In this document: in pieces, positions 14,885-48,625 of the stretch
Position numbering within the stretch: the stretch's first letter is position 1
Layout of the letters: every line of letters starts with the position of its first letter
Assembly: GCA_000004985.1 (NCBI GenBank)
Contig: GG738853.1
DNA from: Naegleria gruberi
Lineage: Eukaryota
Strand: one strand, 5' to 3'
DNA length: 64,000 bases
Program-made: the position numbers and the translations under genes
The notes under the pieces: model-generated
Databases searched by the model: none
What the model was told of the DNA's origin: nothing
Seen by the model: only the letters and a program-made list of their open reading frames with translations

Positions 14885-15868
14885 ATGGTCCTTCTCAAAT
14901 CAGACAAAATCAAACTCACCATTCTCTCAGCCAATAACCTTCGTTCCATGGATCGAAATGGATTCTCAGATCCATACACAAAGATTTTCATCATTCCTGA
15001 ACAAAATGTTGAATTTAAAACAAGGAAAATTAAGAAAACTTTAAATCCAGTTTGGAATGAACAATTTACATTTTCACCAACTGCTCATTATTGTCAGGTT
15101 TCTTGTTATTTATACGATTGGGATATGATTGGAAAGGATGATGTGTTGGGGATGGTCAATTTTGAAATTTCAGAAGAAAGGTTTCGGATAAATCAAGAAC
15201 ATACAATTACAAAGAATGTGGATGATCAGGAGGATGGAAAATATGGAACTGTCACTTTTAAATTTACCATTGAAAGATCCCAACAAGAAATTGACAAGTG
15301 GCACGATTTGAAACTTCCAGCCAATTACAAATTTGTAATGGATTCAGATCCAACTTTTAAAGCAGCAATTCCATACTATTTCGAATACATTCCAGACCAG
15401 CTCACAAGTGAGAAACTCAAAAATCTAGTTGGCTGCACCAAAATGGAGTTTAAATACATGGAAAATGTCTTTACAATTATGAGATCGCAACACAACAAGT
15501 CAATTGAGGAAATTCTACTCATGCACACAAGACCTTTCGAAAATTCGACCAAGTCAGACGAAATTATTTGTAGAAAGTGTGATCACTTTACCAAAGGTGA
15601 TATTTTGATGGGAAAATTCAAACAAGTTGTCATTGCTGATTATTATGTTGGATATGGAAAGGACACGAATGGACACGACGTGTTTTCATTGAGTTTCTTT
15701 ATGGTTGGAATGTTGGAAGAGGGTCTCTATGAAATTTATCATTATTGCAGGGAGGAGGGAAGTCATGAGAGTGAGGAGTTGAATATTGAGGAAGATGTCC
15801 TGATTAATAATGTGATACAATATACACAGATGAGGAAATTCATTTCCAAAAAGTCGTGTTTGCCTTAA
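14885..15868 (+). CDS. C2 domain protein (N-terminal Ca2+/lipid-binding C2 domain)
   Basis: ATG at 14885. KLTILSANNLRSMDRNGFSDPYTKIFIIP...KTRKIKKTLNPVWNEQFTF...YLYDWDMIGKDDVLG carries the classic C2 motifs (SDPY, NP.WNE, D.D..GKDD). Single exon, 327 aa. Confidence 0.8.
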   Translation: MVLLKSDKIKLTILSANNLRSMDRNGFSDPYTKIFIIPEQNVEFKTRKIKKTLNPVWNEQFTFSPTAHYCQVSCYLYDWDMIGKDDVLGMVNFEISEERFRINQEHTITKNVDDQEDGKYGTVTFKFTIERSQQEIDKWHDLKLPANYKFVMDSDPTFKAAIPYYFEYIPDQLTSEKLKNLVGCTKMEFKYMENVFTIMRSQHNKSIEEILLMHTRPFENSTKSDEIICRKCDHFTKGDILMGKFKQVVIADYYVGYGKDTNGHDVFSLSFFMVGMLEEGLYEIYHYCREEGSHESEELNIEEDVLINNVIQYTQMRKFISKKSCLP

Positions 15869-20092: not shown

Positions 20093-20841
20093 AACTCCTT
20101 CTATTAAATTATCGATGAGATGACTATTTTACATTCCATTCATTCGTTGTTATTGTTGTTTATCAAATTTCAGAAGAATGATTAGTGAAAACCTACATGA
20201 ATATTAAACCATCACTTAATCGACCATATAACTCATTTGAAGTTTCCAAATTATCAACACTAATTGGTTGCCACTCACCAATCGTTTCCTCCACTCGTTG
20301 TGGCATCTCTCTCAATCTCTTACTCATAACGGAATTAATAAACATGATAAAACACCTCTTCTCTCTCTTTGAAATCGTCGAGACCGAACCTGTTGCACTC
20401 ACCGATTTAATTAGTGGCTCGACACTCCTGAGTGAGGCTCCTCTTAACTTGATAGCCTCTTCACCTTCGAGCGTTGTTGTTTGTTGCTGCGAATTGTCGT
20501 TATTAAGGTTGCGAGATGACAACATTTTTTCTACAAGTAATAATTTTTTTAAAAATTCCTTAAATCCTTAACGTCTCCCTTCAACAGCCCAAAGATTTGG
20601 CGGGAGAAATCTTGCTCAATAATGCACTGTAAAATAATGATCCCCTTAATGGTTCTATTCGAAAGGAAAATTAGTTTATTTAAGTATTTAAAAGTTTTCA
20701 AGTTTTTTATAAAATGTTAAATTTTTGTATCTTTTAAAAAGAATTCATACTTTCAGTTTCAAAATACGAAATGAAGATAAACTTACTTAAAGAACATCAA
20801 GAAATTACAATTTATTTAATGAAAAATCAAAATGTAAAAAA

Positions 20842-22071
20842 ATGCAAAGACAACAACAGAGAGCATCCTCATCACAAAATGTTTCTCAACATCAGCAATC
20901 TCTTGAACAACAACAAAATTCTCAAGAAGAGGATGATTTAGAATCGGTCAGATTATCACAAGCTGACGAATTATCGCCACCATCATCACCCGAACCTGAA
21001 ACTCCTTTTCAAAATCGAAGAAGGAGAGAACGAGAACGTTCTTTATCATCTAATGATGAAGAAGAACAATCAGTAGTAGATGAACAAGACAATACTTCAG
21101 TAACTCCCAACATAAATGCTCATCAAAGTCCCTATGTAACATCAAATGCTCGGAGGAGAGATTTAATGTACTCTAATCGATACTCTCCACAAACACCAGG
21201 ACAAAAGAAGAAGGCTTTGGAAAATAAATTGAAAAGGGATTTTCCAGAAGACTTTAGAGAAATGAATAGAAGAGAGGAGGAACGAAAAAAGAAACGAGAA
21301 TTTTGTCCAGATAGCTGTGGCTCGATTGCTGGATTTCAATTTACAAATCCTGGTTTACTCATGTTGGGACAGTCAGCACTACATAGATCGGGAGCAATCA
21401 GTTCATTGAGTACGATTGATCCTGCCTTCCTGGCACTGCATAGTCCCGAGAAGAGAATTGAAATTTTGAATAGTGTGGTTGCAAAACCTCCTCCACTTCC
21501 TCCAAAGGAACCAAAAACAGAGGCCGATATACTGAGGGAGTTTCTTAAAAAGAAGAGAACTGAATTGGCAAAACAGGACAAGGTTCAACCTAGATTGATC
21601 ATGGCAGATGATACTATCGATCTGATTGTCATGTGTAGAGAATCAATGTGTATGGGACATGAACTAGTTGAGAAAATTAAGGAAAAACATCAACAGACGA
21701 TTGTTAATTATGTACGAGCATTTGTGAAAAAGAAACATCAACAGCATGAAACTGCAGATGATAATGTAAATAGCAACCATTTAGATTTGAATGTCAATTC
21801 CTCTCACTTGAATGAAACGAGTCAATCAGCATGTTTGGAAAATAGTAACAACAATAACACATTGAATGAGATTTCCCAACTGAATCATTCTATTGCATCT
21901 TCAACATCTTCTCAAACTGTTGTTACAGAGCCAGTTACTCCTGCCAAACAAAGTGTTTCCTTAAAAACTCCAACAGCAAGTAATTCAAAGAAAACACCAG
22001 TTCAAAAAGAGGTTATCGAACTTGATTCTAGTGATTCTGATGATGATGATGGAATTATCCAAATTGATTAA
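20842..22071 (+). CDS. Hypothetical low-complexity (Ser/Gln/Glu-rich, acidic C-terminus) protein
   Basis: ATG at 20842, 409 codons, no intron detected. It has KR-rich patches, so it may be nuclear. No domain recognised. Confidence 0.45.
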   Translation: MQRQQQRASSSQNVSQHQQSLEQQQNSQEEDDLESVRLSQADELSPPSSPEPETPFQNRRRRERERSLSSNDEEEQSVVDEQDNTSVTPNINAHQSPYVTSNARRRDLMYSNRYSPQTPGQKKKALENKLKRDFPEDFREMNRREEERKKKREFCPDSCGSIAGFQFTNPGLLMLGQSALHRSGAISSLSTIDPAFLALHSPEKRIEILNSVVAKPPPLPPKEPKTEADILREFLKKKRTELAKQDKVQPRLIMADDTIDLIVMCRESMCMGHELVEKIKEKHQQTIVNYVRAFVKKKHQQHETADDNVNSNHLDLNVNSSHLNETSQSACLENSNNNNTLNEISQLNHSIASSTSSQTVVTEPVTPAKQSVSLKTPTASNSKKTPVQKEVIELDSSDSDDDDGIIQID

Positions 22072-22205
22072 CAGAATCAATATTTTATTAAATAATAACA
22101 ATCTGATATCTTCTTAATAAGAACACCTCAATCATCAAATATTACTGATAACACCCTTCACATGTCAGCCATCACCTGTTGATCTTCCAAACCATCATAA
22201 AAAAA

Positions 22206-25094
22206 ATGTTTAAAAAAGTCTTTGGAAATAATGGCAGTAAAAAACCAGAGCCAAACAACAATGTCATTGTTGAATCAGCCTCCTCCGACCAACCACCTCC
22301 ATCATCACCAACCACTCCCTCTGACGAACAACCAAGAAAACGAACACCCGTTGCGCCACAAATTCAAGAAGTGAGCGCCAAAGTAAATAATCAATATGTT
22401 CCCACCAAAAAAAACACCGAAGAACAGTACAGTGAGAGTGATAAGGGAGTCTCTGAGAGAAATAAACAAGCATCGGATGTGGTTCGTGTTGAGAGAAATC
22501 AGGGTGATGAAGCGTTGAAGGCTGTTAGAGGATTGTCTGATGGTTTGGAAGATCAACAGGATGATGATTTGGATGGAAAGAAGAAGAAGAAAAAGAAGAA
22601 GGATAAAGAAAGTATTGTTGTTAATACAACAGCTGGAAAGGGAAAGAAATCAACAATTTTGGGTGATTTGATGGGAATTGCTGCTAGAAAGGGATATCTG
22701 AGTAAGAGAGGTGGTTCTATCAAGACTTGGCACAAGAGATTTTTCATTGTTGTTGGTCATCGTCTCTATTATTACAAAGACGATAGTTCAAAGAATGAAC
22801 CATTGGGTTCTGTTAAATGTAAAGGACCAGAAAGTGTTCAACCTGTTGCAGACACATCTCGTCCTAACTGTTTTAGAATTATCTCTGAAGAGAGAACATT
22901 ATACTGTCAAGCTGAAAATGAAAATGACATGAATTCTTGGATGAATTTTTTGAAGGAACACACTTCAAAATTGAATTTACGTAAAGTGAAAGAACTTTCC
23001 AATCTTCAAGGATACATGACATTGTTGGATAATCAAACAAAGAAAAAGAAACGTGATGTTTATTGTTTGTGTATGGATGGTAAATTTTACATTTTGAATA
23101 ATTTTGAGGATGTATTACCGGATAGAATTGTAGAATTGGCTGGTGCCAGTGTAAGCAAAGTTAGTATTTCAGGTACATCAACAAATAATTTATTGGAAAC
23201 ACCTGCAACTCCTTCAAGTCCTAGAAAGATCAACAATACTGAAATTCAAGATTTTGCATTCCAAATCACAGAAAGTTTGCAAGCCGGATACATCCCAGAA
23301 GATGTTGCACCAGAAAAGGAAAAGTCTGGTAGATCTTCACGTTCCAGCTCTACTTTCCGTCAATCTAAAATGTTCAGTAGAAAATCAATGAAGGTCAATG
23401 ATAGCAGTCAATCAGGAAGTGGACAAGGCGATACTACAGCTCGTTTGAGAAAGGGAACTCAATTTTTCCAAAACTTGATCACTAGTGTTGAAGGACTCAA
23501 TCAAGTTACACTAACATCAATTGATCCATTTTTGGCTGATGCTGAAATTTGGTGTGAAATGGTTCGTCACGAATCTGAATTGGCCTCAACCAGTTGGTAT
23601 GTTCGTAACTCTCAAATGCGTGGTTGGATCAAGATTTTAATGAACAACGATGAAGTCAACAAGGCCATTCTTCAAGATAAGAAGAAACCAGAATCATTAT
23701 ATTGGATTGAAAGATATGCCTGTCTTGTTCGTGGTACCTTGTTCTACTTTTCCGAAGAGAATTCTCCAACTCCAGATGGTAGTATTGTCCTCACTACAGG
23801 TTCTCGTCTCGTAACCTCAGCTGTTCGTGAATTGAACTGTCCATATGCATTCAAGATTTCTTCACTTTCATCCAATTTTTATGTTTGCGTAAATTCGGAT
23901 GATGAAAAGGATTGTTGGGTTGAAGAATTAAAGGAAGCAACCTACTCTCAAGCCAATCTCGACTATAACAAGTATGGTTGGTTGACCAAGCAAGGTGGTT
24001 CCTACAAGTCTTGGAAGGAACGTTTCTGTATCTTGAAGGGTACCAATTTGTACTATTTCTCTGATCCAAATGACTCTGAACCTAAGGGTAAAGTCAATCT
24101 TAAGGGTCAAATGATTCGTCACCTTACTCCAGTCGAGGCCTACAATGAAGTTCAAAAGGATAACGTTATCAAGATTTACACTAGTCAACGTACTTGGTAT
24201 TTCTTTGCAGATACCATGCAAGAAGCTGTCGAATGGTCTATTGTATTGAGAAAGGCAGCCCTTCTCTATCGTGGTAGAACTTGGATTGTTGATGACAAGT
24301 TGGATGGCATGGATGCAAAGAATTCCTTGAGATGTAAGAGTATTTCCCAAGCTGTTGCCAAAGCAGCAGAATTGGATCGTATCATTGTCTATTCTGGTGT
24401 ATATTCTGAAACTGTAGTTGTAAACAAATCTGTAATTATAGAATGTGTAGGTGATGTGGTATTAAAGAAGGATTCTGGAGCTCCACTCATTGTGGATTGT
24501 ATTGGTGCCGTAAAGGTCACTGGTATGGAATTAAGACAAGAAGGAGCTCCTAAAGAGCTCAGAGGTGACAAACATGCAGCTGAAGTTAAACGTGGTAACA
24601 TTATGTTTGAACATTGTCAAATTACCAGCAGAGATGGTAATGGTGTTGTCATTACCGAAGAAGGTGGTGTCACTATGAGCAAGTGTCGTGTATTCGACTG
24701 CAACCACTATGGCGTTTGGTTGAACGGAAGAGCTAGTGCCATTTTGGAAAATGTGGAAATTTGTGGATGTCAATGGGATGGTGTCATGCTCATGGCTAAT
24801 ACTGACTGTATCATTCGTCAATCTGATATTTTCAACAATTCTTACAATGGTATTGCCGTCTCTTCAAAGGGTCGTCTCAATGTAGAAAATTGTAGAATAA
24901 GTGGAAACTTGTGGGATGGTATCTCTATCAATACTGACAAGGGTGCTGCCAGATTATTCGATAACTTTATTTTTGACAACCAAGGATTTGGTATTTATTA
25001 TGCTAAAGATAATGTCAGTGGTATCAACGTTGACAATGAAGTGTATTCCAATAAGAAGGGTCAAATCTACACTCTCAGTGGTAGACTTGAATAA
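22206..25094 (+). CDS. Multi-PH-domain protein with a C-terminal right-handed parallel beta-helix (PbH1-repeat) region
   Basis: ATG at 22206; the track ORF opens earlier at a TTG. Four PH-like modules: KGYLSKRGGSIKTWHKRFFIV...NSWMNFLK; LQGYMTLLDNQTKKKKRDVYCL...; LYWIERYACLVRGTLFYFSEE...CWVEELK; and KYGWLTKQGGSYKSWKERFCILKGTNLYYF...AVEWSIVLRKA. The C-terminal ~250 aa have periodic N..GI/W.DG beta-helix repeats (CQITSRDGNGVVI..., NHYGVWLNG..., QWDGVMLMAN..., SYNGIAVSS..., LWDGISINTD..., QGFGIYYA). Confidence 0.65.
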   Translation: MFKKVFGNNGSKKPEPNNNVIVESASSDQPPPSSPTTPSDEQPRKRTPVAPQIQEVSAKVNNQYVPTKKNTEEQYSESDKGVSERNKQASDVVRVERNQGDEALKAVRGLSDGLEDQQDDDLDGKKKKKKKKDKESIVVNTTAGKGKKSTILGDLMGIAARKGYLSKRGGSIKTWHKRFFIVVGHRLYYYKDDSSKNEPLGSVKCKGPESVQPVADTSRPNCFRIISEERTLYCQAENENDMNSWMNFLKEHTSKLNLRKVKELSNLQGYMTLLDNQTKKKKRDVYCLCMDGKFYILNNFEDVLPDRIVELAGASVSKVSISGTSTNNLLETPATPSSPRKINNTEIQDFAFQITESLQAGYIPEDVAPEKEKSGRSSRSSSTFRQSKMFSRKSMKVNDSSQSGSGQGDTTARLRKGTQFFQNLITSVEGLNQVTLTSIDPFLADAEIWCEMVRHESELASTSWYVRNSQMRGWIKILMNNDEVNKAILQDKKKPESLYWIERYACLVRGTLFYFSEENSPTPDGSIVLTTGSRLVTSAVRELNCPYAFKISSLSSNFYVCVNSDDEKDCWVEELKEATYSQANLDYNKYGWLTKQGGSYKSWKERFCILKGTNLYYFSDPNDSEPKGKVNLKGQMIRHLTPVEAYNEVQKDNVIKIYTSQRTWYFFADTMQEAVEWSIVLRKAALLYRGRTWIVDDKLDGMDAKNSLRCKSISQAVAKAAELDRIIVYSGVYSETVVVNKSVIIECVGDVVLKKDSGAPLIVDCIGAVKVTGMELRQEGAPKELRGDKHAAEVKRGNIMFEHCQITSRDGNGVVITEEGGVTMSKCRVFDCNHYGVWLNGRASAILENVEICGCQWDGVMLMANTDCIIRQSDIFNNSYNGIAVSSKGRLNVENCRISGNLWDGISINTDKGAARLFDNFIFDNQGFGIYYAKDNVSGINVDNEVYSNKKGQIYTLSGRLE

Positions 25095-25220
25095 ATTTAA
25101 CAGCCCAAACATTTGCAAAAATCAAAAATTCAAAAATTCTTATTATGCAGATGTAAACGCAACAATAGAAAAGATTATTGAGGGATGTCTGTATTGCAGC
25201 TGAATGCCATATTTATTTTG

Positions 25221-26953
25221 TTACAAATAAAGGAAGGACAAGATGATCAAAACTAAAACAATTAAAACGTTTGGAAGACGAACCAATTGAGCATCATTGA
25301 CATTTCTTGAAATATTAGCATCAGGAGTAGCAGTGGAATTTGTGTTGGAGTTTGAATTAGAATTGGAAGAAACTGCTGGTTTTGGTGAAGAAGTAACTGC
25401 GCTAGGTACTTCAACCTTTAACATTTGAACTGAAACAGTTGATTCCTGATTGACTCCACTAATTGCTGAAATACTTCCCCAACATGAAGAAGATGGCCAA
25501 GTAAATACGAAACTTTGTCCATTATTCAAATTTCCACTATCAATATTTGAAAGATTCCTACAAGCCAAATTCAAAAACAATCTAAACTGTCCTCCTCCAG
25601 TAGTAAGAGCTGTAACATTATACAATTGACCAGCAACTGTTTTAGCCCATGAAACTGGTGAATATCCATTTCCATTTGCATTATTCTGAACTGTTTTCAC
25701 AGTTCTACTGGAAAAGATTACTGCTTGTCTCCATGTATCGAAATATCCAGCAGGTCCTCCAGAACTTACAGTCCAAAGACCTCTCATGGAAAGTAAATTT
25801 TGATTTCTATTAAAATCAATCACCTTATCCTCACCATTCAAATATCCTGAACAAGATTTGAGAGGTCTGAGAGCAGCTCTAATGAGTTGCAATTCATATG
25901 CTGCTTGATTACTCCAACCACCTGGATGCAATGTGTAATTACTGCCAATTTCAACGAAAATGCCATAAGGTGTACCAGTATTACGATCAGTGACATAACC
26001 TCCATAAGTTTTCAAAGTTTCTGCAACTTTTCTCAATTTTGGAATGGTAAGTTGAGCAGTGACATTGAAAGTGGAAGGAAGCATCAATAAACTACCTTCA
26101 GGAATAGTTCCATAATTGCTCTGATAATCAGTATCAGATGCAGTGGCTGGCCAAACATATGGTGGATTATTAGACAAACCATTGTGAGTCATGGATACAG
26201 TCAATGCATGTCTATATTGAGTATCGCCATCATCTACTTCATGTTTTCTAATCAATCCTGCAGAACTCACAACTCCTGTGGCTCTGGCTCCTTGATAGAA
26301 TTGAGCTGGATTTCCCCATCCAGAACCATCGAGAGCTGTCCATGAATAGAGAGTAGTACACCAGGTGCCATTAATTTTGACCATTTGCCAGAATGAGTGA
26401 ATAACATTTGAGATTGGATCATAAATTTCACAGTGACCTATTTTCCAAAAATATCAAATTTTGACACACATGTCATTTTAAAAAACTAATTACATTGACA
26501 AGTATGCAAACAAACTTACCATCACTTCCACTAGCTGGTAAAGTATTAGCTGGCCATCTTGGAATTGTAATATTTGGAGCAAATCCACCAATATCTGGCA
26601 CGCCAATTCCCTTACTAGATGAACCATAAACTGTGAGTGGAGAATCAGTTTTTGAGGCAACGAAAACTCCAGTAGAATAAATTCCTTCACCAACTGTTGG
26701 ATAAAAGTTCATTGTTGATAGTGGAATAGTTTTGGTATCGTCTAAAACTGGGTTGACTGGACGACAATTCCAAGGAGAGCTTGCAGAGAATGGTCTGTAA
26801 ATGCTTCCAAAGGGATAATCAGATTGGAGGCATGTTACATGTTGAGAAAACATGTCTGTTAAAAACAATGTCAATTGTCAAAGTGCATGAAAACTTACAA
26901 ATTACTGACAGCAAAAGCATGACAGATAATTTAACTGTGAATAGGTTATTCAT
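25221..26953 (-). CDS. Secreted Ser/Thr-rich cell-surface protein, probably GPI-anchored
   Basis: Three exons on the minus strand: 26953..26899, 26855..26520 and 26437..25221. The introns are GTAAGT...AG, 43 nt and 82 nt long, with consistent phase (1 then 1). Signal peptide MNNLFTVKLSVMLLLSVI. The C-terminus is an S/N/T-rich linker followed by a hydrophobic tail, VRLPNVLIVLVLIILSFLYL, typical of a GPI-attachment signal. The central domain is unassigned. Confidence 0.55.
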
Positions 26954-29465: not shown

Positions 29466-30794
29466 ATGCATCCCTTTGAAGGTTACGCAAAATTATGTGG
29501 GCAAGATGTTGAATATTACTTACAAAAGCTAAATGTCTCTCTCGGAAGAACACGGGTGCCTGATCCACAAGTTATAGATCCTAAATCTTTGGCAGAAGAA
29601 CAGACAGTTGATGCTAATCAAAGTTTAAATTCCACATTATCTACTACAGGTCATTTACAACCTTCTATTGAAACACTTCAAAGAGTGCTCTGGGAACAAG
29701 ATGTAGATATTCCTCTAGGTACCAACAAGAATATTTCACGTCTCCATGCCAAAATAATTTATAATGCTATAACAAAATTCTTTGAATTACACGTGATATC
29801 AAAGAATGGTGTAAAAGTTAATGGAATTTACTATCCTCCACAACCACACTCTCAACCAATCCCACTTCATAACGGTTATGAATTACAATTAGGTGATTGT
29901 TTCTTGACCTTTATGCTTCCAATTAAAAAGATAACCCAAAGCGAAATGTATCAAATGGTAAACCTGAAAAAGAGAGATATGCAAAATGCAGATAGAGCTG
30001 ACAGAGACAATTCTTCAACAAATGATCAAGATAGACAAGGAAATGATATGATGATGACTGACGAGAGTCACACAAGTACTATGAATGATGAAGTTTCTGA
30101 TGCTCTTTCAAAAAACTTTCTTAGAGAAATTGAACCAATGGACGACCCCAATGGAGAGTATGGTTCTTTTTTTCTAAATGAAGGAAAGAAGAATATTTTT
30201 TTTAGGAACCTCGGAAATGGTCTAGCTGGGGGAACACCAATTAGTAGTGAACAAGCAAATGTACTTGCAAGATCATTGACAACAAGTATTGGCCCTTCTC
30301 TCACTGCAGCAGTAACACAAACTTTATCTGGAATTTATTTAGAAAATCACTCTGATTTTATCAAATCATTTCTTTCTAAATCAAATGCACCAAGTCCTCA
30401 TACGGAAATGGTTCTGGAGTATCTTTACAACTCTCCTGATATTGAAAATGCAGAATCACCTGAGGCAGTTAGTATGTTAGCGCGATTAATGACAGATATG
30501 GATAATAATATCGGATCAAACTTTTCCAACATGTCCAAGAATACTAAAAAGCTGTTGCATATAGTACTGAATGCTGCTTTGGCAACAGAACAACAAGAGT
30601 TAGCCTCTCTACTTTTCAAGACAAAGCAAGAAAACGAAATTACTGTAAGAAATGGTATTGCTACTTTTGTGCTTGATTGGAACGAAAAGAAGCAGAAACA
30701 ACAAGATATGGAAGCTGCTGTAAATACAAGTGCTACAACACCTCTTGTAGATCCACAAGCCTCCTCTCTTTCATCTCATCCAACAGTGAGATAG
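29466..30794 (+). CDS. FHA-domain protein. This is the likely 5' portion of a FoxK/Fkh1-type FHA-forkhead transcription factor gene.
   Basis: ATG at 29466. AKLCGQDVEYYLQKLNVSLGRT...ISRLHAKIIYNAITKFFELHVISKNGVKVNGIYY...LQLGDCFLTFMLP matches the FoxK/Fkh FHA pattern (AKLEG.EFEY...GR......SR.H....f.l...GKNGV.V.G). The stop is a TAG at 30792. The forkhead ORF starts 98 nt downstream on the same strand. Confidence 0.6.
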   Translation: MHPFEGYAKLCGQDVEYYLQKLNVSLGRTRVPDPQVIDPKSLAEEQTVDANQSLNSTLSTTGHLQPSIETLQRVLWEQDVDIPLGTNKNISRLHAKIIYNAITKFFELHVISKNGVKVNGIYYPPQPHSQPIPLHNGYELQLGDCFLTFMLPIKKITQSEMYQMVNLKKRDMQNADRADRDNSSTNDQDRQGNDMMMTDESHTSTMNDEVSDALSKNFLREIEPMDDPNGEYGSFFLNEGKKNIFFRNLGNGLAGGTPISSEQANVLARSLTTSIGPSLTAAVTQTLSGIYLENHSDFIKSFLSKSNAPSPHTEMVLEYLYNSPDIENAESPEAVSMLARLMTDMDNNIGSNFSNMSKNTKKLLHIVLNAALATEQQELASLLFKTKQENEITVRNGIATFVLDWNEKKQKQQDMEAAVNTSATTPLVDPQASSLSSHPTVR

Positions 30795-30891
30795 TATCTT
30801 TTCATCACGAGTTAATCTTCCTTCAATTGATTCACAACCTCCACCAGCCAACAATTTTACTGCAATTACCTCATCTTCACAACCTCTACAA

Positions 30892-33087
30892 ATGGCCACC
30901 ACAACATCATCATTAACTTCTCTAATTCCTCCTCCAATATTATCATCCTCTCAACAACAACAAACACAATTGACGGATGTACCTCCATCATCGCAGAGTA
31001 CAACACAATTACCACCCGATGATGATTTGGATGCTTTGGACGAATTTGATGAATTGATGGCTTTCGTCAATGCTCCTATGGATACAAATTCTGAACAATG
31101 GCGTTTATTGAATCAAAATTCAAATGTTCCACCAGTGACAACAACAACTTCCTCTATTCCTCCTAATGATACAACAGTAAACAGTAGTGCTACTACATCA
31201 AATGTAACTGCACCAACTACTGAAAAGAAGAAAAAGACTACAAAAAAGAAGAAGGATGAAAAGGAAACCACCACTAAAAAGAAGGAAACAAAGAAGAAGA
31301 AGGATGATAAAAAAGAGGACAAGAAGGAAGATAAAAAGGAAGAAAAGAAAGAAGAAAAGGAAAAGAAGAAGAAAAAGAAGAAGGAGGAGCCATCTACTCC
31401 AAAGGATACTGTCAAACAAGAAGAGCCTGCTGTTTCCACACCAAAAGATCCCAATCTTAAGAAACCTGATATTTCATATTCTACAATGATTGCTCATGCA
31501 CTCATGTCAGCAGCTAATAACATGATGCCTCTCAAATCAATTTATTCTTGGATTTCCACAACTTATCCATTCTACGATCTTGCAGAGACTGGTTGGAAGA
31601 GTAGTGTGAGACATAATTTGAGCACAAATTCTAAATATTTCCGAAGAGTATCACCTGAAGAATGGAGACAATTAACTGGAGAAGAGAAAAAGTCAAAATC
31701 TAAAAAACAAGGCTCCTCAGATAAGAAGATGGCATTCTCTGTCTATGCACTTGTGACTGAGCATTGTGATGAAGTTTTGGGAACAAAGAAAGCCAAATCA
31801 GACAAGAAGGCATCCTCTTCTACTTCTTCTTTAACAACGCTTAGTAATGCTACTACAGCACCAGTTAGTTCATCATCTACATTACCTGCCAATAGTACTC
31901 TTTCTTCTTCTACTAATGCAACCACTGACCAAACAGCAATAACCTCAGAAGTGAAAGAAGTTAAGGAAAAAGAAACCAAGAAGAAGAAATCATCCACCAG
32001 TAGTGCAACAAAGAAGAGAAGTAGAAAAAAGTCCGAATCTACAGACTTGGATTTAAATGATGGCTTGTTGAACTTTGATGAAATTGCACCATCAATGAGT
32101 TTGGATAAACCAGAAAAGAAAAAGAAGAAGAAGACTTCTAAAAAATCAGAAACTCCTACAGCTAGTACAACTCCAGCTGCTGAATCTTCAACACCTGTGA
32201 CTCAAACCAATAACAACAATAATACCAATGTAACTACTCCCCAATTGTCACATTCCAGTTCCAATCAAAACTTCCAACACAGTACTCCAACTAATCAAAT
32301 TTCTATCACCCAAAATATTATGCCAAATACATCTCAACCATTGGCTCCAAAACAACCATTCCCTTTGTCAAATCAAATTCCTAATCAAATTCCACCAAAC
32401 CAAATGCCAAATCAAATGCCAAACCAAATGCCAAATCAGATGCCAAATCAAATACCTAATCAAATCCCTCGTCAAAGTACTAATAACTTGTTGGAAATGT
32501 TTGTTCAGAATGGAATGCTAAATGCCCAAGAACCTTCTTTTCTTAAAATTTTATTGGATGGAAATGGAGATTCATCAGCCAACAATCCATTATCAGCGCT
32601 CATGGGTCAAGGAGGTCAGAATATGAATCCAAACCAAGGACTCAATACAGCACCACTTGGTAATATGGTTGATTCACAGGGAAAGCAAATTGACCTTATT
32701 AATTTACTTTCAATGGTAACTGGAATGCCTCAACAACAAAACATGTCTCAATCTGGTATGTCTCAACCACCAATGCACCAAAACTTTTTAGATCCAAATA
32801 ACAGACTTGTTACACAAGGAAGACCTCCTAATTGGCCACCTGGTGCAGGCTTACCAAATCAACTTCAAGGAGGAAGGCCTTCTATGGGATCAGTTGTTGG
32901 TATGCAAAATCCTGGTCAATTCCCTGTACAAAATCCAAATATGAATCCATTAGGTCATCCAGGATTTAATCAATTCCCATTTCCCATGATGAACTACTCT
33001 CAAACACTTCTCAACTTTGATCCATCATCAATACTGCAGCAACAAGGTAATGGTGGTATTCCTCCCAATAATAACAATAATAAATAG
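30892..33087 (+). CDS. Forkhead (winged-helix) DNA-binding domain protein. This is the likely 3' portion of the same FHA-forkhead gene.
   Basis: Forkhead box at about nt 31462-31640: KPDISYSTMIAHALMSAANNMMPLKSIYSWISTTYPFYDLAETGWKSSVRHNLSTNSKYFRRV. It carries the invariant features KP..SY..LI..AI, F.YY, GW.NS[IV]RHNLS. The flanks are a K/E-rich block and Q/N/P-rich tandem repeats (NQMP)n. The reading frame is open upstream to nt 30790, overlapping the end of the FHA ORF. Confidence 0.7.
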   Translation: MATTTSSLTSLIPPPILSSSQQQQTQLTDVPPSSQSTTQLPPDDDLDALDEFDELMAFVNAPMDTNSEQWRLLNQNSNVPPVTTTTSSIPPNDTTVNSSATTSNVTAPTTEKKKKTTKKKKDEKETTTKKKETKKKKDDKKEDKKEDKKEEKKEEKEKKKKKKKEEPSTPKDTVKQEEPAVSTPKDPNLKKPDISYSTMIAHALMSAANNMMPLKSIYSWISTTYPFYDLAETGWKSSVRHNLSTNSKYFRRVSPEEWRQLTGEEKKSKSKKQGSSDKKMAFSVYALVTEHCDEVLGTKKAKSDKKASSSTSSLTTLSNATTAPVSSSSTLPANSTLSSSTNATTDQTAITSEVKEVKEKETKKKKSSTSSATKKRSRKKSESTDLDLNDGLLNFDEIAPSMSLDKPEKKKKKKTSKKSETPTASTTPAAESSTPVTQTNNNNNTNVTTPQLSHSSSNQNFQHSTPTNQISITQNIMPNTSQPLAPKQPFPLSNQIPNQIPPNQMPNQMPNQMPNQMPNQIPNQIPRQSTNNLLEMFVQNGMLNAQEPSFLKILLDGNGDSSANNPLSALMGQGGQNMNPNQGLNTAPLGNMVDSQGKQIDLINLLSMVTGMPQQQNMSQSGMSQPPMHQNFLDPNNRLVTQGRPPNWPPGAGLPNQLQGGRPSMGSVVGMQNPGQFPVQNPNMNPLGHPGFNQFPFPMMNYSQTLLNFDPSSILQQQGNGGIPPNNNNNK

Positions 33088-33280: not shown

Positions 33281-34430
33281 ATGAGCAACAATAGCAACAA
33301 TAATTCAGATGATGCTTCAATCAGGAAGCAACTGTGGGAAGGTTCAATACCAAGTGTAATCAACATTAAATCTGAACACATAACGTCTTTTCAACAGCCT
33401 TTCCCATATTTTGTAAGTGTTTTCATTCCGATCATTAATTGTTTGGGGCAATAATTATCTAGACAATGATTCCTAGACATTCATATTTATCTTTACTGAT
33501 CGATAAAGTCAAATCGCATTATTCTGAATTTTCAGGATTTGATAGTGATCAATTATGGTTTAGTTTCAATACTATTGCTATGCAATGGCACGTACCAGCT
33601 GGAGTTTTATATGATTTGATGTATATCTTGGATCCGAATAGTATGTATTTGATTGGAAATAATAATAACAATAATTATATAACTAATAATTTGATGATGG
33701 TGAAATTATAATATTTAAATAATATAACAACAATGATATGTTGTGCATTTACTAAATGTTGATTGATCAAATTATATTAATATAATTTTAATAATATTTA
33801 ACAAAACATGAAAACTAAATAGCACTTAAATTACCTTGGTCATTAACAGCAAATTTTGGAGCTTTTCCAGCAGATACTGTCATTCGTTGTAGTAATGAAG
33901 AGGATGCTCAGTGGAATTATCTCAACAATATTAAAGAGTGCATGTATATTCGTTTCAACTCTACATCAGCCATGATGACTTTTAGTAATGAGGATCAAAA
34001 GGAATTATGGTCAGCTGTAAAGAGTCAAAACGAACAAGTATTTTGCAAACTTTTCGAAAAGATTAAACTTGGAGCTAAAATTGCTTCCATTGATGATATG
34101 GTTTATGCCATTAGAATTTACACACCACTCAAAAAGGATTCTAATAGCTCTGTAAATTTAACAGATGATTCAAAGAAGAAGGATGTATTAAAATATAAGA
34201 AGAATATGATATGTTTAAAGAGAGACCAAGCTAAACAACTTGATTTACAAACATTCTTAAACAATCATGTTATTCCTCAATTAACCAAAGGTGGATATTT
34301 TGGAGATTGTGAAACCAAGATTGACCGAGTTGTCATTCAAGGTGTCGAACCTTCCAAGGAAACTGAAATGTTATGGCTCTTTGAAAATTGTGCTCATCCA
34401 GATGGTTTCTTATACATGTGTTGTAAATAA
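33281..34430 (+). CDS. atg5: Autophagy protein 5 (ATG5)
   Basis: Exons 33281..33412, 33463..33640 and 33850..34430. Intron 1 is GTAAGT...CTAG, 50 nt. Intron 2 is GTATGT...AACAG, 209 nt and AT-rich; its acceptor is the only one that fits the phase. The product reads MSNNSNNNSDDASIRKQLWEGSIPSVINIKSEHITSFQQPFPYF|TMIPRHSYLSLLIDKVKSHY...QLWFSFNTIAMQWHVPAGVLYDL...|TNFGAFPADTVIRC...ELWSAV...VVIQGVEPSKETEMLWL...FLYMCCK. These parallel the conserved ATG5 blocks (VWFGRIP, PRVSYLTLVTDKVKKHF, EIWFEY..LKWHYPIGLLFDL, IHGIEP). Confidence 0.8.
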
Positions 34431-34751: not shown

Positions 34752-37073
34752 ATGTCAACATCCTTGTTATTGTTGGTGGATCAATTGACAACATTTTACG
34801 GAAAGAAACTTTTAAACGATCATTATGCTCTCACCTATTTAGATAATAATTACTATTCATTGGCTTTCATTGGAGTCATGTTATGTTTGGTGTGGGGAGT
34901 TTTAATTACTGCGCCAATTCATATCATTTCTTGGGTTTTGTATTTTGTGGGTGCTAGGAAATCATCATCATTAAATTCATCATCTTTTGGAATTGATGAT
35001 GATGATGAGGAGGATGTTGTTGGAAGTTCTGGTTTTGGTGGTCAGAAACAACCTTCCCTAAAGAAACAAATTGAAAAGAGTAGAAAATTCGGAAAGGTTT
35101 TTAATGTCTTGACAAGTGTTTCATCATTTGTTTGGTGTTTGTTTGCTTCTTACTTTTTGGTGCTTGTTTCTACATTTTCTAGAGCTCATTATATTTTGAC
35201 AGCTTTGGTGATTACTATTATGTGGTCTGTTTGGTTGATTAATAGTTTTGTTTTGGATTTAAAGTGGATTATTGTTATGATTTATTATAGACTTGTCAAG
35301 AAGGTTGATTTGACAAGTGTCAGCACATCATCTAGTCAAATGATTCAAGAATCACAAGAATTGGCTGATGATGGTGAAGCACTTTTGGAAGATAACTCTT
35401 CTGGTTTACAAAGAAGACCACAATCTTCATCAAAATTAGATCCAAAGAAAGCAGTTACTGTTACTCGTTCCTTGCTTTTGGATTCATCAAAACCATACAT
35501 TTCTAGAAAGCCAATTCTTGCTGTCATTTTGATTGTTATTGCTACTACAATTATTCTCATTGTTTCTGTCATGACAACTTTCATCTTTGCTGATATTTGT
35601 ATTGCCTATGATCCTATTGAAATTTCTACACATTTCACTCGTACTGTCTTGTCAAATGGCAAGTGTGAAAGAGATACTGTCTGTTATTCTTATTTGACAG
35701 TTCCAGAAAAGATGGATCATCAAATGATTGTCAATTTCCAACTCTATACTTATGAATTCTATAAGGGCTTTGTTGAATATAAGAGATTCGATCCAGCTGA
35801 TGAAGATTTTGATCCAAAAGATGTTGAATTCAATGAATATCATCAAGCCAGTTGCTTTAAATTGGATAATATTGAAGAAGAAAGCAGATATCAATGTTTT
35901 GCTGAATTGACTGATTTGAAACCTGGTTCTTCTTATATTCTTCGTGCTGGTTATTCTGCATCTGAAAGTACTGATGCTCATGATTTCCACTACGATAATG
36001 AATATCTCAAATTTAGAACAATTCCATCAGAGGATGATTCCTCCAAGATTGTTTCATTCATTAATGGAGGTGATTTGGCATGGAGAGGACCAACCTATGC
36101 TCTCTCCAAAGCTGTCAATACTTTGGGATATGGAAATGTAGATAATGCTCCATATTTCGCTATTGTTGGTGGTGATATTGCCTATGAAAATGGATGTGCC
36201 TACTGTTATAGAAGATGGGACGATTGGTTCTTGAATTGGAATAAGTTTATGAAGACAACTGTTCAATACGATTCTGATAATTCTACCATTCATCAATATA
36301 CACTTCCAATTTTGACAACTGTTGGTAATCATGAAGGTGGTAATTTCAAGAGACCTAGATCAGATGATGCATTCTATATTAGATTATTCCCAATGTCAAT
36401 TAGTGGAGCAACTGAAAAGATTGTTTCTGATCCACAAACTACAAGAAAATTGCAACACGTCCACTATCTCTCCAAGCATACCATGATTGTTGCATTGGAC
36501 AGTTGGGTTCACGAATCTCCACAAGACCAAATTGAATACTTGACCAATCTCTTTGAAAAATCAGTCACTGCAGGAACCTACAAGAATCGTTTCATTATTA
36601 TTCACCATCCAATGTATACTTCAGGTAGTGTTGGAGACATTGATAAGGAAATGATTGCCAAATGGGAATCCCTCTTCCAAAAGTATGGTATTACAGCAGT
36701 TTTTGAAAATCACGTTCATACCTACAAGCAAACTTATCCAATTCGTGATGGTAAGGTTGTAACAAAGACCAGTGAACAAACTGATTCAACATCTGTTGCA
36801 TTCAGTTACAAGAGAGAATCTGCTGACAATAGCAAGGACGGAATTATGTATTTCGGAGATGGAAGTTGGGGAGTTACCTATTGGAATGCTTCCTTGAGAA
36901 AGAGCAGTGGACTCTTCAGACAAATTGGAGTTTTGAGTCATGTCTATCATGTCAAATGTAGATCATTATCGAATGCTATTTCATTCACTGAATTGTATGC
37001 TCTTGGATATAATTCTACAACTGGAGCTGTTTCTGAATTTGGTAAATCTCGTGTCAGAATTGAAGTTCACTAA
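34752..37073 (+). CDS. Membrane-anchored purple-acid-phosphatase-like metallophosphoesterase
   Basis: ATG at 34752. Several N-terminal hydrophobic helices (nt ~34830-35620). An FN3-like segment follows (QCFAELTDLKPGSSYILRAGYSA). Then the calcineurin-like motif set: INGGDLAW, GGDIAYENG (GDxxY), TTVGNHEGG (GNHE), IIIHHPMYTS and FENHVHTYKQ (GHxH). 773 aa, single exon. Confidence 0.7.
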   Translation: MSTSLLLLVDQLTTFYGKKLLNDHYALTYLDNNYYSLAFIGVMLCLVWGVLITAPIHIISWVLYFVGARKSSSLNSSSFGIDDDDEEDVVGSSGFGGQKQPSLKKQIEKSRKFGKVFNVLTSVSSFVWCLFASYFLVLVSTFSRAHYILTALVITIMWSVWLINSFVLDLKWIIVMIYYRLVKKVDLTSVSTSSSQMIQESQELADDGEALLEDNSSGLQRRPQSSSKLDPKKAVTVTRSLLLDSSKPYISRKPILAVILIVIATTIILIVSVMTTFIFADICIAYDPIEISTHFTRTVLSNGKCERDTVCYSYLTVPEKMDHQMIVNFQLYTYEFYKGFVEYKRFDPADEDFDPKDVEFNEYHQASCFKLDNIEEESRYQCFAELTDLKPGSSYILRAGYSASESTDAHDFHYDNEYLKFRTIPSEDDSSKIVSFINGGDLAWRGPTYALSKAVNTLGYGNVDNAPYFAIVGGDIAYENGCAYCYRRWDDWFLNWNKFMKTTVQYDSDNSTIHQYTLPILTTVGNHEGGNFKRPRSDDAFYIRLFPMSISGATEKIVSDPQTTRKLQHVHYLSKHTMIVALDSWVHESPQDQIEYLTNLFEKSVTAGTYKNRFIIIHHPMYTSGSVGDIDKEMIAKWESLFQKYGITAVFENHVHTYKQTYPIRDGKVVTKTSEQTDSTSVAFSYKRESADNSKDGIMYFGDGSWGVTYWNASLRKSSGLFRQIGVLSHVYHVKCRSLSNAISFTELYALGYNSTTGAVSEFGKSRVRIEVH

Positions 37074-47961: not shown

Positions 47962-48625
47962 CGTTGCAACCATCAATTCCGCCAAAACCTGACAGTCTTA
48001 TTCATGATTCACAAAAGGACATTTCAACAATTTATGAAATTTTCAAGGAAAATAGTTTTGAATCAGATGAATGGCTATACGAATTGGAACAACAAAAGAA
48101 GAATTTGAAATATAAGGACTTTGAAAGATCTTTCCAAGTATTTGACTGGGTAAGAGAAAGCAAAATTGACCAATCAGAAGTTATGGAAAAATTGTTAGAG
48201 TATATGAACATGTTGAACTAATCCAGAAGATAGTTTAATCATTTGTTGCAAGTTTTTGATTGTTTCACAAGGGAAGGAAGTTCAGAATATGATACATTCC
48301 AAATGATTCTCAATTATCACACAACAGTCAATCAGAATATTAGATCATTTGCAACAGATTTTGAGATTAGCAATATTGCATTACAAAATTATTAAACTAA
48401 TTCTTTTATCAAGAAGTTCAACAAACGAGGAGCTTTGTTGTATCTCATCTTTATTTGTCATTTATTGATTTTACTAATGGTTAAGCTGTTCCATTCTATC
48501 TCTGATATTATCATTGGTTATCGTAAACGATTTGATTGAGATAGACAAATTTGGACAGGTGTTGATTGAAGAGATCAAACAAGTTTCTAATGATTATTAA
48601 ATTGGCAAATGAAACAAACAGAAAA

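What the first reader, a model, noticed from the sequence alone, without database searches (positions are those of the whole stretch)
29466..33087. FHA-domain ORF and forkhead-domain ORF 98 nt apart in different frames. Probably one FoxK/Fkh1-like transcription factor gene broken by a frameshift or a non-AT-rich intron.
The upstream ORF carries an FHA domain of the FoxK/Fkh type (AKLCGQDVEY...GKNGVKVNG...). The downstream ORF carries a canonical forkhead box. In yeast Fkh1/Fkh2 and metazoan FoxK this FHA-forkhead order occurs in a single polypeptide. The stop of ORF1 (TAG 30792) and the opening of ORF2's frame (30790) overlap. A GT...AG excision of 64 or 91 nt (donor GTAGAT at 30747 or GTAAAT at 30720, acceptor CACGAG at 30810) would fuse them in phase. 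Neither candidate intron is AT-rich like the other introns here, so a sequencing indel or a real pseudogenising frameshift is equally possible. Forkhead genes are sparse outside opisthokonts, so an intact FHA-forkhead factor here is of evolutionary interest.
Basis: partly seen in the sequence, partly recalled or inferred. Interest (0 to 1): 0.7.

Follow-up and report, generated by a model that had tools for sequence, protein, structure and literature searches.

The report
Frameshifted FHA–forkhead gene in Naegleria
The two reading frames are the two halves of one FHA–forkhead transcription-factor gene of the amoeba Naegleria gruberi, split in this reference assembly by a point frameshift rather than an intron; the gene is already in public databases, so the result is a gene-model correction and a clear case of a forkhead factor outside animals and fungi.

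Summary
The window is Naegleria gruberi NEG-M. ORF1 (29466-30794) carries an FHA domain and ORF2 (frame open 30790-33087) a forkhead domain.

They are one gene. The orthologues in N. lovaniensis (1244 aa) and Willaertia magna (952 aa) are single intronless ORFs with both domains. They align collinearly with both window ORFs, and ATG5 lies downstream in N. lovaniensis as here.

The break is not an intron. The other in-phase GT..AG pairs near the junction lack the GTAAGT/GTATGT donors and low GC (0.19-0.30) of six likely introns in this window. Codon usage is coding-like on both sides and switches frame at about 30788.

A point indel therefore lies within 30787-30794. I could not tell consensus error from a real mutation.

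The public N. gruberi model already holds this forkhead hit (PMC10530576). Its position fits a predicted 196-nt intron that would delete conserved residues. Interest is moderate to low.

The parts
29466..30794 (+). ORF1, the N-terminal part of the gene (442 aa). It starts MHPFEGYAKLCGQD, matching the N. lovaniensis start MHPYEGYAKLCGQD.
   Evidence: 58% identity to P0002 aa 1-426, E = 3e-171; tblastn P0002 aa 1-440 onto 29466-30731.
29487..29915 (+). FHA domain. The beta-sandwich spans aa 8-150, with a 45-residue low-confidence loop at aa 31-75. The phosphothreonine-binding set is present: G27-R28 (29538-29555), S91-R92-x-H94 (29733-29753) and N114-G115 (29799-29825).
   Evidence: Pfam PF00498 at 29.6 bits. 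G27, R28, S91 and H94 are invariant, and N114 and G115 nearly invariant, in 15 homologues. AlphaFold2 gives pLDDT 80.4 with 11 strands. All 50 listed Foldseek PDB matches are to structures containing an FHA domain, at probability 1.00.
30153..30668 (+). Lineage-specific conserved middle region (ORF1 aa 230-401, from GEYGSFFLN through SIGPSLTAAVTQTLSGIYLEN to VLNAALATEQQELASLL). It has no Pfam match and unknown function.
   Evidence: Alignment with N. lovaniensis. The W. magna tblastn match extends to 30740. No Pfam family passes its curated cut-off here; the only other listing, UPF0302, scores 13.1 against a cut-off of 27.
30787..30794 (+). Frame-break site TGAGATAG: TGA in the ORF2 frame (30787-89) and TAG in the ORF1 frame (30792-94). 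Removing any single base in this interval gives one open frame by hand reading; two such repairs (A30789, T30792) and adding GA after 30791 were translated and give an uninterrupted 1206-1207-aa ORF.
   Evidence: The codon-usage change point, computed ignoring stops, is at 30788, with 2-bit support over 30779-30803.
30790..33087 (+). ORF2 frame, the C-terminal part of the gene (765 codons plus stop). The 34 codons before the first ATG (30892) score as coding.
   Evidence: 30790-30891 scores 0.38 bits/codon against an in-frame mean of 0.33; no out-of-frame segment and 0.8% of intergenic-like segments reach it. P0002 aa 462-1220 aligns to 30895-32916.
31018..31068 (+). Acidic/hydrophobic motif DDDLDALDEFDELMAFV, matched in N. 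lovaniensis by DSLDDFDELLEELV. A second motif, LLNFDEIAPS (32065-32094), matches LLDFDEIGPS. Both are inferred activation or partner-binding motifs.
   Evidence: Sequences; the second motif is aligned, while the first correspondence is by eye, since pairs DSLDDFDEL only with the second window motif; coordinates. The function is inference only.
31222..31389 (+). Lysine-rich stretch (ORF2 aa 145-200), an inferred nuclear-localisation or linker region just upstream of the forkhead domain.
   Evidence: N. lovaniensis has a comparable K-rich stretch. The function is inferred.
31462..31755 (+). Forkhead (winged-helix) DNA-binding domain. It runs from KPDISYS through helix 3, GWKSSVRHNLS (31591-31623), and a 24-26-aa wing-1 insertion (31651-31728) to the strand MAFSVYALV (31729-31755).
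   Evidence: Pfam PF00250 at 77.1 bits, profile positions 1-68 of 88. PDB matches FoxN3 at 1.9e-13 and FoxK1 at 7e-13. Alignment.
32371..33084 (+). Low-complexity Q/N/P-rich C-terminal tail, including the PNQ(M/I) repeats at 32371-32469.

Best explanation
ORF1 and ORF2 are the two parts of a single, ancestrally intronless gene of Naegleria gruberi. It encodes a transcription factor of about 1,206 aa with an N-terminal FHA domain and a forkhead DNA-binding domain.

In this reference assembly the reading frame is broken by a point indel within 30787-30794. That indel is a net +1 base, for example one inserted base or loss of one GA unit from GTGAGAGATAGT. There is no intron and no intergenic spacer at the break.

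I judge it most likely that the cell still has an intact copy. On that view the break is either a consensus error in the draft assembly or a lesion on one allele of a heterozygous diploid.

Shown here: one gene by orthology and synteny, both domains, the position and nature of the break, and the failure of the intron candidates.

Inferred: that the FHA domain docks phosphothreonine-marked partners while helix 3 of the forkhead domain reads DNA, as in yeast Fkh1/Fkh2 and animal FoxK. The cause of the indel is also inferred.
For: Organism: an ORF in the window is exactly XP_002680534.1 of N. gruberi.

Domains: FHA at 29.6 bits and Forkhead at 77.1 bits, both above the Pfam cut-offs. The FHA fold and its phosphothreonine-binding residues are supported.

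One gene:
- N. lovaniensis XP_044548457.1 (1244 aa) has both domains in one 3735-nt ORF.
- It aligns collinearly with the window: aa 1-440 onto 29466-30731 in the ORF1 frame, and aa 462-1220 onto 30895-32916 in the ORF2 frame.
- ATG5 lies downstream in both species.
- W. magna KAL9650008.1 (952 aa) is likewise one 2859-nt ORF with both domains.
- Of the top 50 matches to ORF1 among 1.84 billion representatives, 25 also carry a forkhead domain.

No spacer at the break:
- 30732-30791 in the ORF1 frame scores 0.46 bits/codon and 30790-30891 in the ORF2 frame scores 0.38.
- The in-frame mean is about 0.34. Out-of-frame segments never reach these scores, and only about 1% of intergenic-like segments do.
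- The change point is at 30788.
- The 30790-30891 stretch, which covers almost all of the ~97-nt gap, has GC 0.37, against 0.26-0.33 for most intergenic-like blocks (range 0.26-0.37).

Repair: two one-base deletions in the site (A30789, T30792) and a GA insertion after 30791 each translate to an uninterrupted 1206-1207-aa ORF.

Intact halves: 442 and 765 stop-free codons fit an artefact or a very recent lesion.

Allele possibility: PMC9928731 describes Naegleria as mainly a heterozygous diploid.
Against: - No reads, transcripts or second N. gruberi assembly could be reached for 30787-30794, so consensus error versus real mutation is untested.
- The site is not a homopolymer, the usual place for base-calling indels.
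- The two flanking stops sit unusually close together. Only 1.3% of simulated random one-base insertions in this window's ORFs leave a stop-to-stop gap of 2 nt or less. A plain random indel is therefore a somewhat unlikely way to reach exactly this configuration.
- The public gene model seems to bridge the break with an intron, and I could not see whether any EST supports it.
Confidence: 0.5

Rival explanations
1. The same point indel is real and fixed in NEG-M. The gene would then be a very young pseudogene, or it would have just split so that a 442-aa FHA protein is made and a 731-aa forkhead protein perhaps arises by initiation at ATG 30892.
For: - The break is a point frameshift with coding sequence on both sides.
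- The site GTGAGATAGT could arise from (GA)3 by loss of one GA unit, a mutation-like event.
- It is not a homopolymer.
- My own knowledge, not tested here: NEG-M is a long-cultured axenic laboratory line in which loss of a regulator could be tolerated.
- ATG 30892 sits in an A(-3)/G(+4) context.
Against: - There is no second lesion in 1,207 codons.
- The Met at 30892 is an internal residue conserved in N. lovaniensis (NMTATTT against QMATTT), so it is not evidence for a start.
- The 34 codons upstream of it are coding-like.
- There is no AT-rich promoter-like spacer.
Confidence: 0.3
2. A spliceosomal intron joins the two frames. Candidates are 30730-30811 (82 nt), 30786-30996 (211 nt), and 30599-30794 (196 nt), the last being the one the public model appears to use.
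For: - These pairs are GT..AG and in phase.
- With 30599-30794 removed, KPDISY falls at residue 601. This is exactly where the public model EP00686_Naegleria_gruberi_P012610 has its Fox hit, at 601-667.
- Removing 82 nt would bring the linker length closer to that of N. lovaniensis.
Against: - Six likely introns in this window, inferred from ORF structure and splice signals rather than transcripts, are 44-82 nt long, have GC 0.19-0.30, use GTAAGT or GTATGT donors and end in TAG or CAG.
- The candidates have donors GTGCTA, GTGAGA and GTTAGC and GC 0.39-0.44. The 82-nt candidate ends in GAG.
- Their interiors score as in-frame coding: 0.46, 0.31 and 0.45 bits/codon.
- The 196-nt candidate would delete ELASLLFKTKQENEITVRNGIATF, which is conserved in N. 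lovaniensis.
- Both orthologues are intronless.
- A U12-like GTATCTTTT at 30794 has no matching branch site by eye, and the same coding-like interior.
Confidence: 0.08
3. Programmed +1 ribosomal frameshifting at GUG AGA UAG U. The ribosome stalls at the in-frame UAG and resumes at AGU, making the full-length protein from the sequence as it stands.
For: - The 0-frame stop sits exactly where the +1 frame opens.
- This tight arrangement is rare for random indels, at 1.3%.
- Both frames are coding right up to the site.
Against: - The P-site codon AGA cannot re-pair in the +1 frame (GAU).
- By inspection I saw no stimulatory structure or slippery motif.
- The N. lovaniensis and W. magna orthologues need no frameshift.
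- I know of no +1 frameshifting system in Heterolobosea (my own knowledge).
Confidence: 0.03
4. Two long-standing independent genes that merely lie next to each other.
For: There are two ORFs, each with its own ATG and stop.
Against: - Orthologues in two genera are single ORFs.
- The 30790-30891 stretch, nearly all of the ~97-nt gap, is coding-like with GC 0.37.
- The FHA domain of ORF1 is of the kind found fused to forkhead domains.
Confidence: 0.03

Closest known systems
Naegleria lovaniensis C9374_004745 (XP_044548457.1) and Willaertia magna ABK040_003126 (KAL9650008.1), both annotated as hypothetical proteins
   Same: These are the orthologues.
- Same domain order: FHA, conserved middle region, K-rich linker, forkhead.
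- Same helix 3 (GWKSSVRHNLS in N. lovaniensis, GWKSSIRHNLS in W. magna) and the same wing-1 insertion.
- ATG5 lies downstream in N. lovaniensis as in the window.
   Different: They are single uninterrupted ORFs, whereas the N. gruberi reference has a +1 frame break at 30787-30794. The linkers are poorly conserved and differ in length.
Yeast Fkh1/Fkh2 and animal FoxK1/FoxK2 (FHA domain N-terminal to a forkhead domain)
   Same: - Same two domains in the same order.
- The FHA domain keeps the Gly-Arg, Ser-x-x-His and Asn-Gly residues.
- Its nearest sequence relatives are FHA domains of forkhead proteins, including Wickerhamomyces Fkh and Pigoraptor.
- The forkhead domain matches FoxK1 (7e-13), FoxK2 and Fkh1 in the PDB.
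   Different: - The organism is a heterolobosean, not an opisthokont.
- About 510 residues separate the two domains, against roughly 60-170 in the opisthokont (Pigoraptor, yeast) homologues.
- The conserved helix-3 Asn is Ser.
- Wing 1 carries a 24-aa insertion, so the Pfam match stops at profile position 68 of 88.
- The FHA domain has a 45-residue loop insertion.
- The forkhead domain is no closer to FoxK than to FoxN3 or FoxM1.
Public N. gruberi gene model EP00686_Naegleria_gruberi_P012610. By numbering it is the model just before XP_002680540.1, so presumably EFC47795.1; I did not verify that accession.
   Same: It appears to be the same locus. The numbering places it immediately before P012611, which is window 34752-37073. 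Its Fox hit lies at residues 601-667. It is the only N. gruberi Fox hit in that supplementary file.
   Different: I could not retrieve its sequence. The position 601 fits a fused model that removes 30599-30794 as an intron. That would delete 65 coding-like residues, about 30 of them in a block conserved with N. lovaniensis. A point repair would instead put KPDISY at residue 666.

Membership tests
Forkhead (Fox) DNA-binding domain, Pfam PF00250 | Sequence match to the family profile above the curated threshold | tested here: met
   77.1 bits against a cut-off of 27, ORF2 aa 224-291. There are 46 PDB forkhead chains at E <= 1e-3, the best being FoxN3 at 1.9e-13.
Forkhead (Fox) DNA-binding domain, Pfam PF00250 | Helix-3 DNA-contact residues (Asn, Arg, His, Ser of W-x-N-S-I-R-H-N-L-S) | tested here: inconclusive
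   The window has GWKSSVRHNLS. Arg, His and Ser are kept but the Asn is Ser. The same change occurs in N. lovaniensis, W. magna and four metagenome relatives. The effect on DNA specificity is unknown.
Forkhead (Fox) DNA-binding domain, Pfam PF00250 | Complete winged-helix fold, including strands and wing 1 | tested here: inconclusive
   The Pfam match covers profile positions 1-68 of 88. A 24-26-aa insertion lies between FRRV and SVYAL. No structure of this domain was predicted.
FHA domain, Pfam PF00498 | Profile match above threshold and an 11-strand beta-sandwich fold | tested here: met
   29.6 bits against a cut-off of 20.7. The AlphaFold2 model has pLDDT 80.4. All 50 listed Foldseek PDB matches are to structures containing an FHA domain, at probability 1.00.
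FHA domain, Pfam PF00498 | Phosphothreonine-binding residues Gly-Arg, Ser-x-x-His and Asn-Gly | tested here: met
   G27, R28, S91 and H94 are invariant, and N114 and G115 nearly invariant, in the alignment of 15 homologues.
Fkh1/Fkh2/FoxK-type factors | FHA and forkhead domains in that order in one polypeptide | tested here: inconclusive
   Not one ORF in this assembly: there is a frame break at 30787-30794. It is one ORF in the N. lovaniensis and W. magna orthologues.
Fkh1/Fkh2/FoxK-type factors | FHA domain of the forkhead-linked type | tested here: met
   25 of the top 50 representatives matched by ORF1 also carry PF00250. Nine of the ten best hits tested do.
Fkh1/Fkh2/FoxK-type factors | Forkhead domain groups with the FoxK/Fkh clade in a phylogeny | not tested
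   No tree was built. PDB scores are nearly equal for FoxN3 (53.9), FoxK1 (52.1), FoxK2 (50.5), FoxM1 (50.0) and Fkh1 (47.7).
Fkh1/Fkh2/FoxK-type factors | Phospho-dependent partner recruitment and cell-cycle or metabolic gene control | not testable with these tools
   This needs experiments.
N. gruberi spliceosomal intron (as seen in this window) | GT..AG ends and removal that leaves the exons in phase | tested here: not met
Other in-phase pairs do exist.
N. gruberi spliceosomal intron (as seen in this window) | GTAAGT or GTATGT donor, TAG or CAG acceptor, 44-82 nt, GC 0.19-0.30, non-coding interior | tested here: not met
   Six likely introns, inferred from ORF structure and splice signals, set the pattern. 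The in-phase candidates have GTGCTA, GTGAGA or GTTAGC donors, GC 0.39-0.44 and coding-like interiors.
Programmed +1 ribosomal frameshift site | 0-frame stop or hungry codon at the shift site | tested here: met
   The sequence is AGA UAG U, with the +1 frame open from 30790.
Programmed +1 ribosomal frameshift site | Conservation of the shift site in orthologues, and a P-site codon able to re-pair | tested here: not met
   The orthologues are single ORFs. AGA to GAU gives no re-pairing, as read directly from the sequence.

The most novel reading that the evidence does not exclude
The frame break is genuine in the genome, and Naegleria still makes the full-length FHA-forkhead factor by +1 ribosomal frameshifting at AGA-UAG-U. 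To my knowledge this would be the first programmed +1 frameshift described in a heterolobosean, and it would sit in the organism's only detected forkhead gene.
Probability: 0.03. Interest if true: 0.75.

Novelty: new member of a known kind. Interest (0 to 1): 0.35.

Why it matters
Fox transcription factors are treated as nearly confined to opisthokonts. PMC10530576 notes Fox hits in 4 of 8 heteroloboseans. It attributes the rare Fox hits outside opisthokonts, these included, to horizontal transfer, convergence or possibly contamination.

This locus bears on that view in three ways:
- **Not contamination.** The gene sits inside a 695-kb Naegleria scaffold, has ATG5 downstream as in N. lovaniensis, and has a single-ORF orthologue in Willaertia.
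- **Full architecture.** It has the complete FHA-then-forkhead layout of Fkh1/Fkh2/FoxK, with shared lineage-specific changes: Ser for Asn in helix 3 and an enlarged wing 1.
- **Breadth.** Its relatives across Heterolobosea point to presence in the heterolobosean ancestor, whether by old vertical descent or old transfer.

In practice, the public N. gruberi model of what appears to be its only forkhead gene probably contains a spurious 196-nt intron.

The frameshift itself is most likely an ordinary assembly or allelic lesion.

Tried and rejected
30747 or 30720 to 30811 are out of phase.

**Other GT..AG pairs.** I enumerated all in-phase pairs of 20-600 nt; there are 106.
- None near the junction has a GTAAGT or GTATGT donor.
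- The two with GTATGT or GTAAGA donors are 340-376 nt and would remove conserved coding sequence.
- GC-AG donors nearby, checked by eye in the sequence, do not resemble a consensus.
- A U12-like GTATCTTTT donor at 30794 (205-nt in-phase intron) has no TCCTTAAC-like branch site by eye, and its interior is coding-like.

**Searches that returned nothing useful.**
- The search for homologous proteins with ORF1 typed as letters and with a junction-spanning fusion found nothing, although P0002 is 58-70% identical. I treat this as a tool limitation. As a result, no N. fowleri orthologue and no N. gruberi model were retrieved.
- Exact look-ups of ORF1 and ORF2 found no record. The N. gruberi scaffold is not in the contig index.
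- The JGI metagenome scan with ORF1 peptides found no relative. A 20-mer next to the junction gave one chance match with no further similarity.
- phmmer of the FHA region against PDB sequences found nothing; the fold search did.

**Independent strain not reached.** ENA ERZ929261 / Logan ERR1078381 holds contigs 98.4-99.7% identical to this scaffold. I could not reach the contig over the junction, because only exact-protein look-up is offered.

**Linker lengths.** Comparison with N. lovaniensis was not decisive, because the linker is low-complexity and poorly conserved.

Full report
**Source and observation**

An ORF in the window (14885-15865) is identical to N. gruberi XP_002680534.1 on a 695,587-bp scaffold. 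Two more ORFs match XP_002680536.1 and XP_002680540.1. The window is therefore Naegleria gruberi NEG-M nuclear DNA, with about 34% GC, dense genes and few introns.

ORF1 runs 29466-30794 and encodes 442 aa. The ORF2 frame is open from 30790 to 33087, with its first ATG at 30892. Pfam gives FHA at 29.6 bits (cut-off 20.7) in ORF1 and Forkhead at 77.1 bits (cut-off 27) in ORF2. The ORF2 frame is ORF1 +1. TGA at 30787-89 closes the ORF2 frame upstream, and TAG at 30792-94 closes ORF1.

The descriptive part of the finding is correct. The splice arithmetic is not. Introns from 30747 or 30720 to the AG at 30810-30811 are 65 and 92 nt and out of phase. The 64- and 91-nt versions end in GA.

**One gene or two**

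A search with ORF2 returned N. lovaniensis C9374_004745 (P0002, 1244 aa), which has both Pfam domains.
- It matches ORF1 over aa 1-408 at 58% identity (E = 3e-171). It matches ORF2 over the forkhead region at 44%.
- In the N. lovaniensis genome it is one uninterrupted 3735-nt ORF, followed after a small 137-aa ORF by ATG5. The window also has ATG5 just downstream.
- tblastn places its aa 1-440 on 29466-30731 in the ORF1 frame and aa 462-1220 on 30895-32916 in the ORF2 frame, which is collinear.

An exhaustive HMMER search with ORF1 found Willaertia magna KAL9650008.1 (952 aa) as the next relative. It also has FHA plus forkhead, in one 2859-nt ORF. Of the top 50 representatives, 25 carry a forkhead domain as well. 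The two window ORFs are therefore parts of one ancestrally intronless gene.

**Intron or point frameshift**

Six likely introns were recognised in this window, from ORF structure and splice signals rather than transcripts: 47183-47231, 54089-54132, 49099-49144, 42151-42095(-), 26519-26438(-) and 33415-33464. They are 44-82 nt long, have GC 0.19-0.30, use GTAAGT or GTATGT donors and end in TAG or CAG.

The shorter in-phase GT..AG pairs at the junction compare poorly:

| Candidate | Length | Donor | Acceptor end | GC |
|---|---|---|---|---|
| 30730-30811 | 82 nt | GTGCTA | GAG | 0.44 |
| 30786-30996 | 211 nt | GTGAGA | CAG | 0.39 |
| 30599-30794 | 196 nt | GTTAGC | TAG | 0.39 |
| 30655-30847 | 193 nt | GTATTG | CAG | 0.40 |

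I trained a codon-usage log-odds score on 17 other ORFs of the window. In-frame coding segments average about 0.34 bits/codon. No out-of-frame segment, and only about 1% of intergenic-like segments, reach the scores below.

| Segment | Frame | Score (bits/codon) |
|---|---|---|
| 30732-30791 | ORF1 | 0.46 |
| 30600-30791 | ORF1 | 0.45 |
| 30790-30891 | ORF2 | 0.38 |
| 30790-30996 | ORF2 | 0.31 |

- A maximum-likelihood change point computed while ignoring stop codons falls at 30788, with 2-bit support over 30779-30803.
- Coding sequence in the ORF1 frame therefore abuts coding sequence in the ORF2 frame with nothing between them.
- This is the signature of a point indel.
- The two stops confine a single-base change to 30787-30794.
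- Two such single-base deletions (A30789, T30792), and adding GA to give (GA)3, were translated; each gives an uninterrupted 1206-1207-aa ORF.

**What I could not settle**

I could not determine whether the indel is a consensus error, one allele, or fixed.
- The site is not a homopolymer.
- Random one-base insertions simulated in this window's ORFs leave the flanking stops this close only 1.3% of the time.
- Naegleria is described as mainly a heterozygous diploid (PMC9928731).
- An independent, 98.4-99.7% identical Naegleria is present in ERR1078381, but its contig over the junction was out of reach.

The absence of any second lesion in 1,207 codons points to an artefact or a very recent event. 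I lean towards an intact functional copy existing (0.5), against a fixed real lesion (0.3). I give an intron 0.08, +1 frameshifting 0.03 and long-standing separate genes 0.03.

**The public model**

The supplement of PMC10530576 lists EP00686_Naegleria_gruberi_P012610 with a Fox hit at residues 601-667. P012611 is the next gene in the window, so numbering makes P012610 the model at this locus. It is the only N. gruberi entry in that file.

Removing 30599-30794 puts KPDISY exactly at residue 601, whereas a point repair puts it at 666. The public model therefore very probably bridges the frameshift with a 196-nt predicted intron that ends on the G of ORF1's TAG. That would delete ORF1 aa 378-442, including ELASLLFKTKQENEITVRNGIATF, which is conserved in N. 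lovaniensis. This is an inference from the numbering, because I could not fetch the model.

**The protein and how it probably works**

The FHA domain:
- It keeps Gly27-Arg28, Ser91-x-x-His94 and Asn114-Gly115.
- It folds as an 11-strand sandwich in AlphaFold2, at pLDDT 80.4, with a disordered 45-residue loop.
- In a Foldseek search of the PDB, all 50 listed matches are to structures containing an FHA domain.

The forkhead domain:
- It matches FoxN3, FoxK1/K2, FoxM1 and Fkh1 at nearly equal scores.
- Helix 3 reads GWKSSVRHNLS, with Ser replacing the usual Asn.
- Wing 1 carries a 24-aa insertion, which is about 60 aa in Willaertia.
- Both features are shared with the orthologues. The Ser is also shared with single-ORF FHA-forkhead genes on compact metagenome contigs, which are as close to N. 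gruberi as Willaertia is.

Between the two domains lie a Naegleria/Willaertia-specific conserved region, an acidic DEFDEL motif and a K-rich stretch.

By analogy with Fkh1/Fkh2 and FoxK (established knowledge), the likely mechanism has two parts. The forkhead domain binds DNA sequence-specifically. The FHA domain recruits phosphothreonine-marked partners. This is inference and was not tested here.

**Novelty**

The literature I could search treats Fox factors as nearly confined to opisthokonts. It notes Fox hits in 4 of 8 heteroloboseans and reads the rare Fox hits outside opisthokonts as possibly transfer, convergence or contamination. I found no paper describing the FHA-forkhead architecture in Heterolobosea.

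The gene, its orthologues and the N. gruberi Fox hit are already in public databases. This is therefore a new, somewhat divergent member of a known kind, plus a correction to a gene model. It is not a new kind of system.

Noticed in passing
window 12-4433 (+): A 1473-aa ORF running off the 5' end of the window carries Condensation, AMP-binding and phosphopantetheine-binding domains. This is an NRPS-like gene in a heterolobosean amoeba.
   Followed up: no
L002, L003, L004 (ENA ERZ929261 / Logan ERR1078381, PRJEB11402), matching window 44292-48345 and 20471-25326: A public 'metagenome' run contains genomic contigs 98.4-99.7% identical to this N. gruberi scaffold, with the window's 35-36-nt spacing at the 47183-47231 putative intron preserved. 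It is an independent near-conspecific Naegleria whose reads could settle the frameshift.
   Followed up: partly
L005 3001-4284 (JGI Ga0401357_00056, 253 kb) and L007 3001-4218 (JGI Ga0606064_0003, 321 kb): Compact metagenome contigs of GC 0.36-0.38 carry single-ORF FHA+forkhead genes (P0016, P0014). These are as similar to the N. gruberi gene as Willaertia's is: FHA 43-46% and forkhead 55-61% identity. They share the GW[KR]SSVRHNLS helix 3. They are probably uncultured heteroloboseans; their taxonomy was not established.
   Followed up: partly
window 30599-30794: The public N. gruberi model (EukProt EP00686_P012610) has its Fox hit at residue 601. That position fits only a fused model which removes these 196 nt as an intron (GTTAGC...GATAG), deleting 65 coding-like residues, about 30 of them in a block conserved with N. 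lovaniensis. The model itself could not be retrieved.
   Followed up: partly
window about 61000-63000: There is an assembly gap: GC is 0.000-0.005, read as a run of Ns. The two long 'ORFs' listed at 60950-63008 on both strands are artefacts of that gap.
   Followed up: no
window 47183-47231, 54089-54132, 49099-49144, 42151-42095 (-), 26519-26438 (-), 33415-33464: Six short likely introns (44-82 nt, GC 0.19-0.30), inferred from ORF structure and splice signals, have GTAAGT or GTATGT donors. Two begin GTAAGTGT, and one has a TACTAAC branch site. They make a useful local splice-signal reference.
   Followed up: partly
window 30153-30668 (ORF1 aa 230-401): A region of about 170 residues between the FHA and forkhead domains is well conserved in N. 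lovaniensis and recognisable in W. magna (SIGPSLTAAVTQTLSGIYLEN, VLNAALATEQQELASLL). No Pfam family passes its curated cut-off there, so it may be a lineage-specific domain.
   Followed up: no
window 47961-47964 (L002 3672-3675): The kinase-domain ORF 47221-47961 is followed at once by another called ORF. This suggests a further intron or frame change in that gene.
   Followed up: no
The search for homologous proteins returned no hits for two plain-letter queries, although a 58-70% identical protein (P0002) is in its database and was found with a window-reference query. These negative results should not be read as absence.
   Followed up: yes
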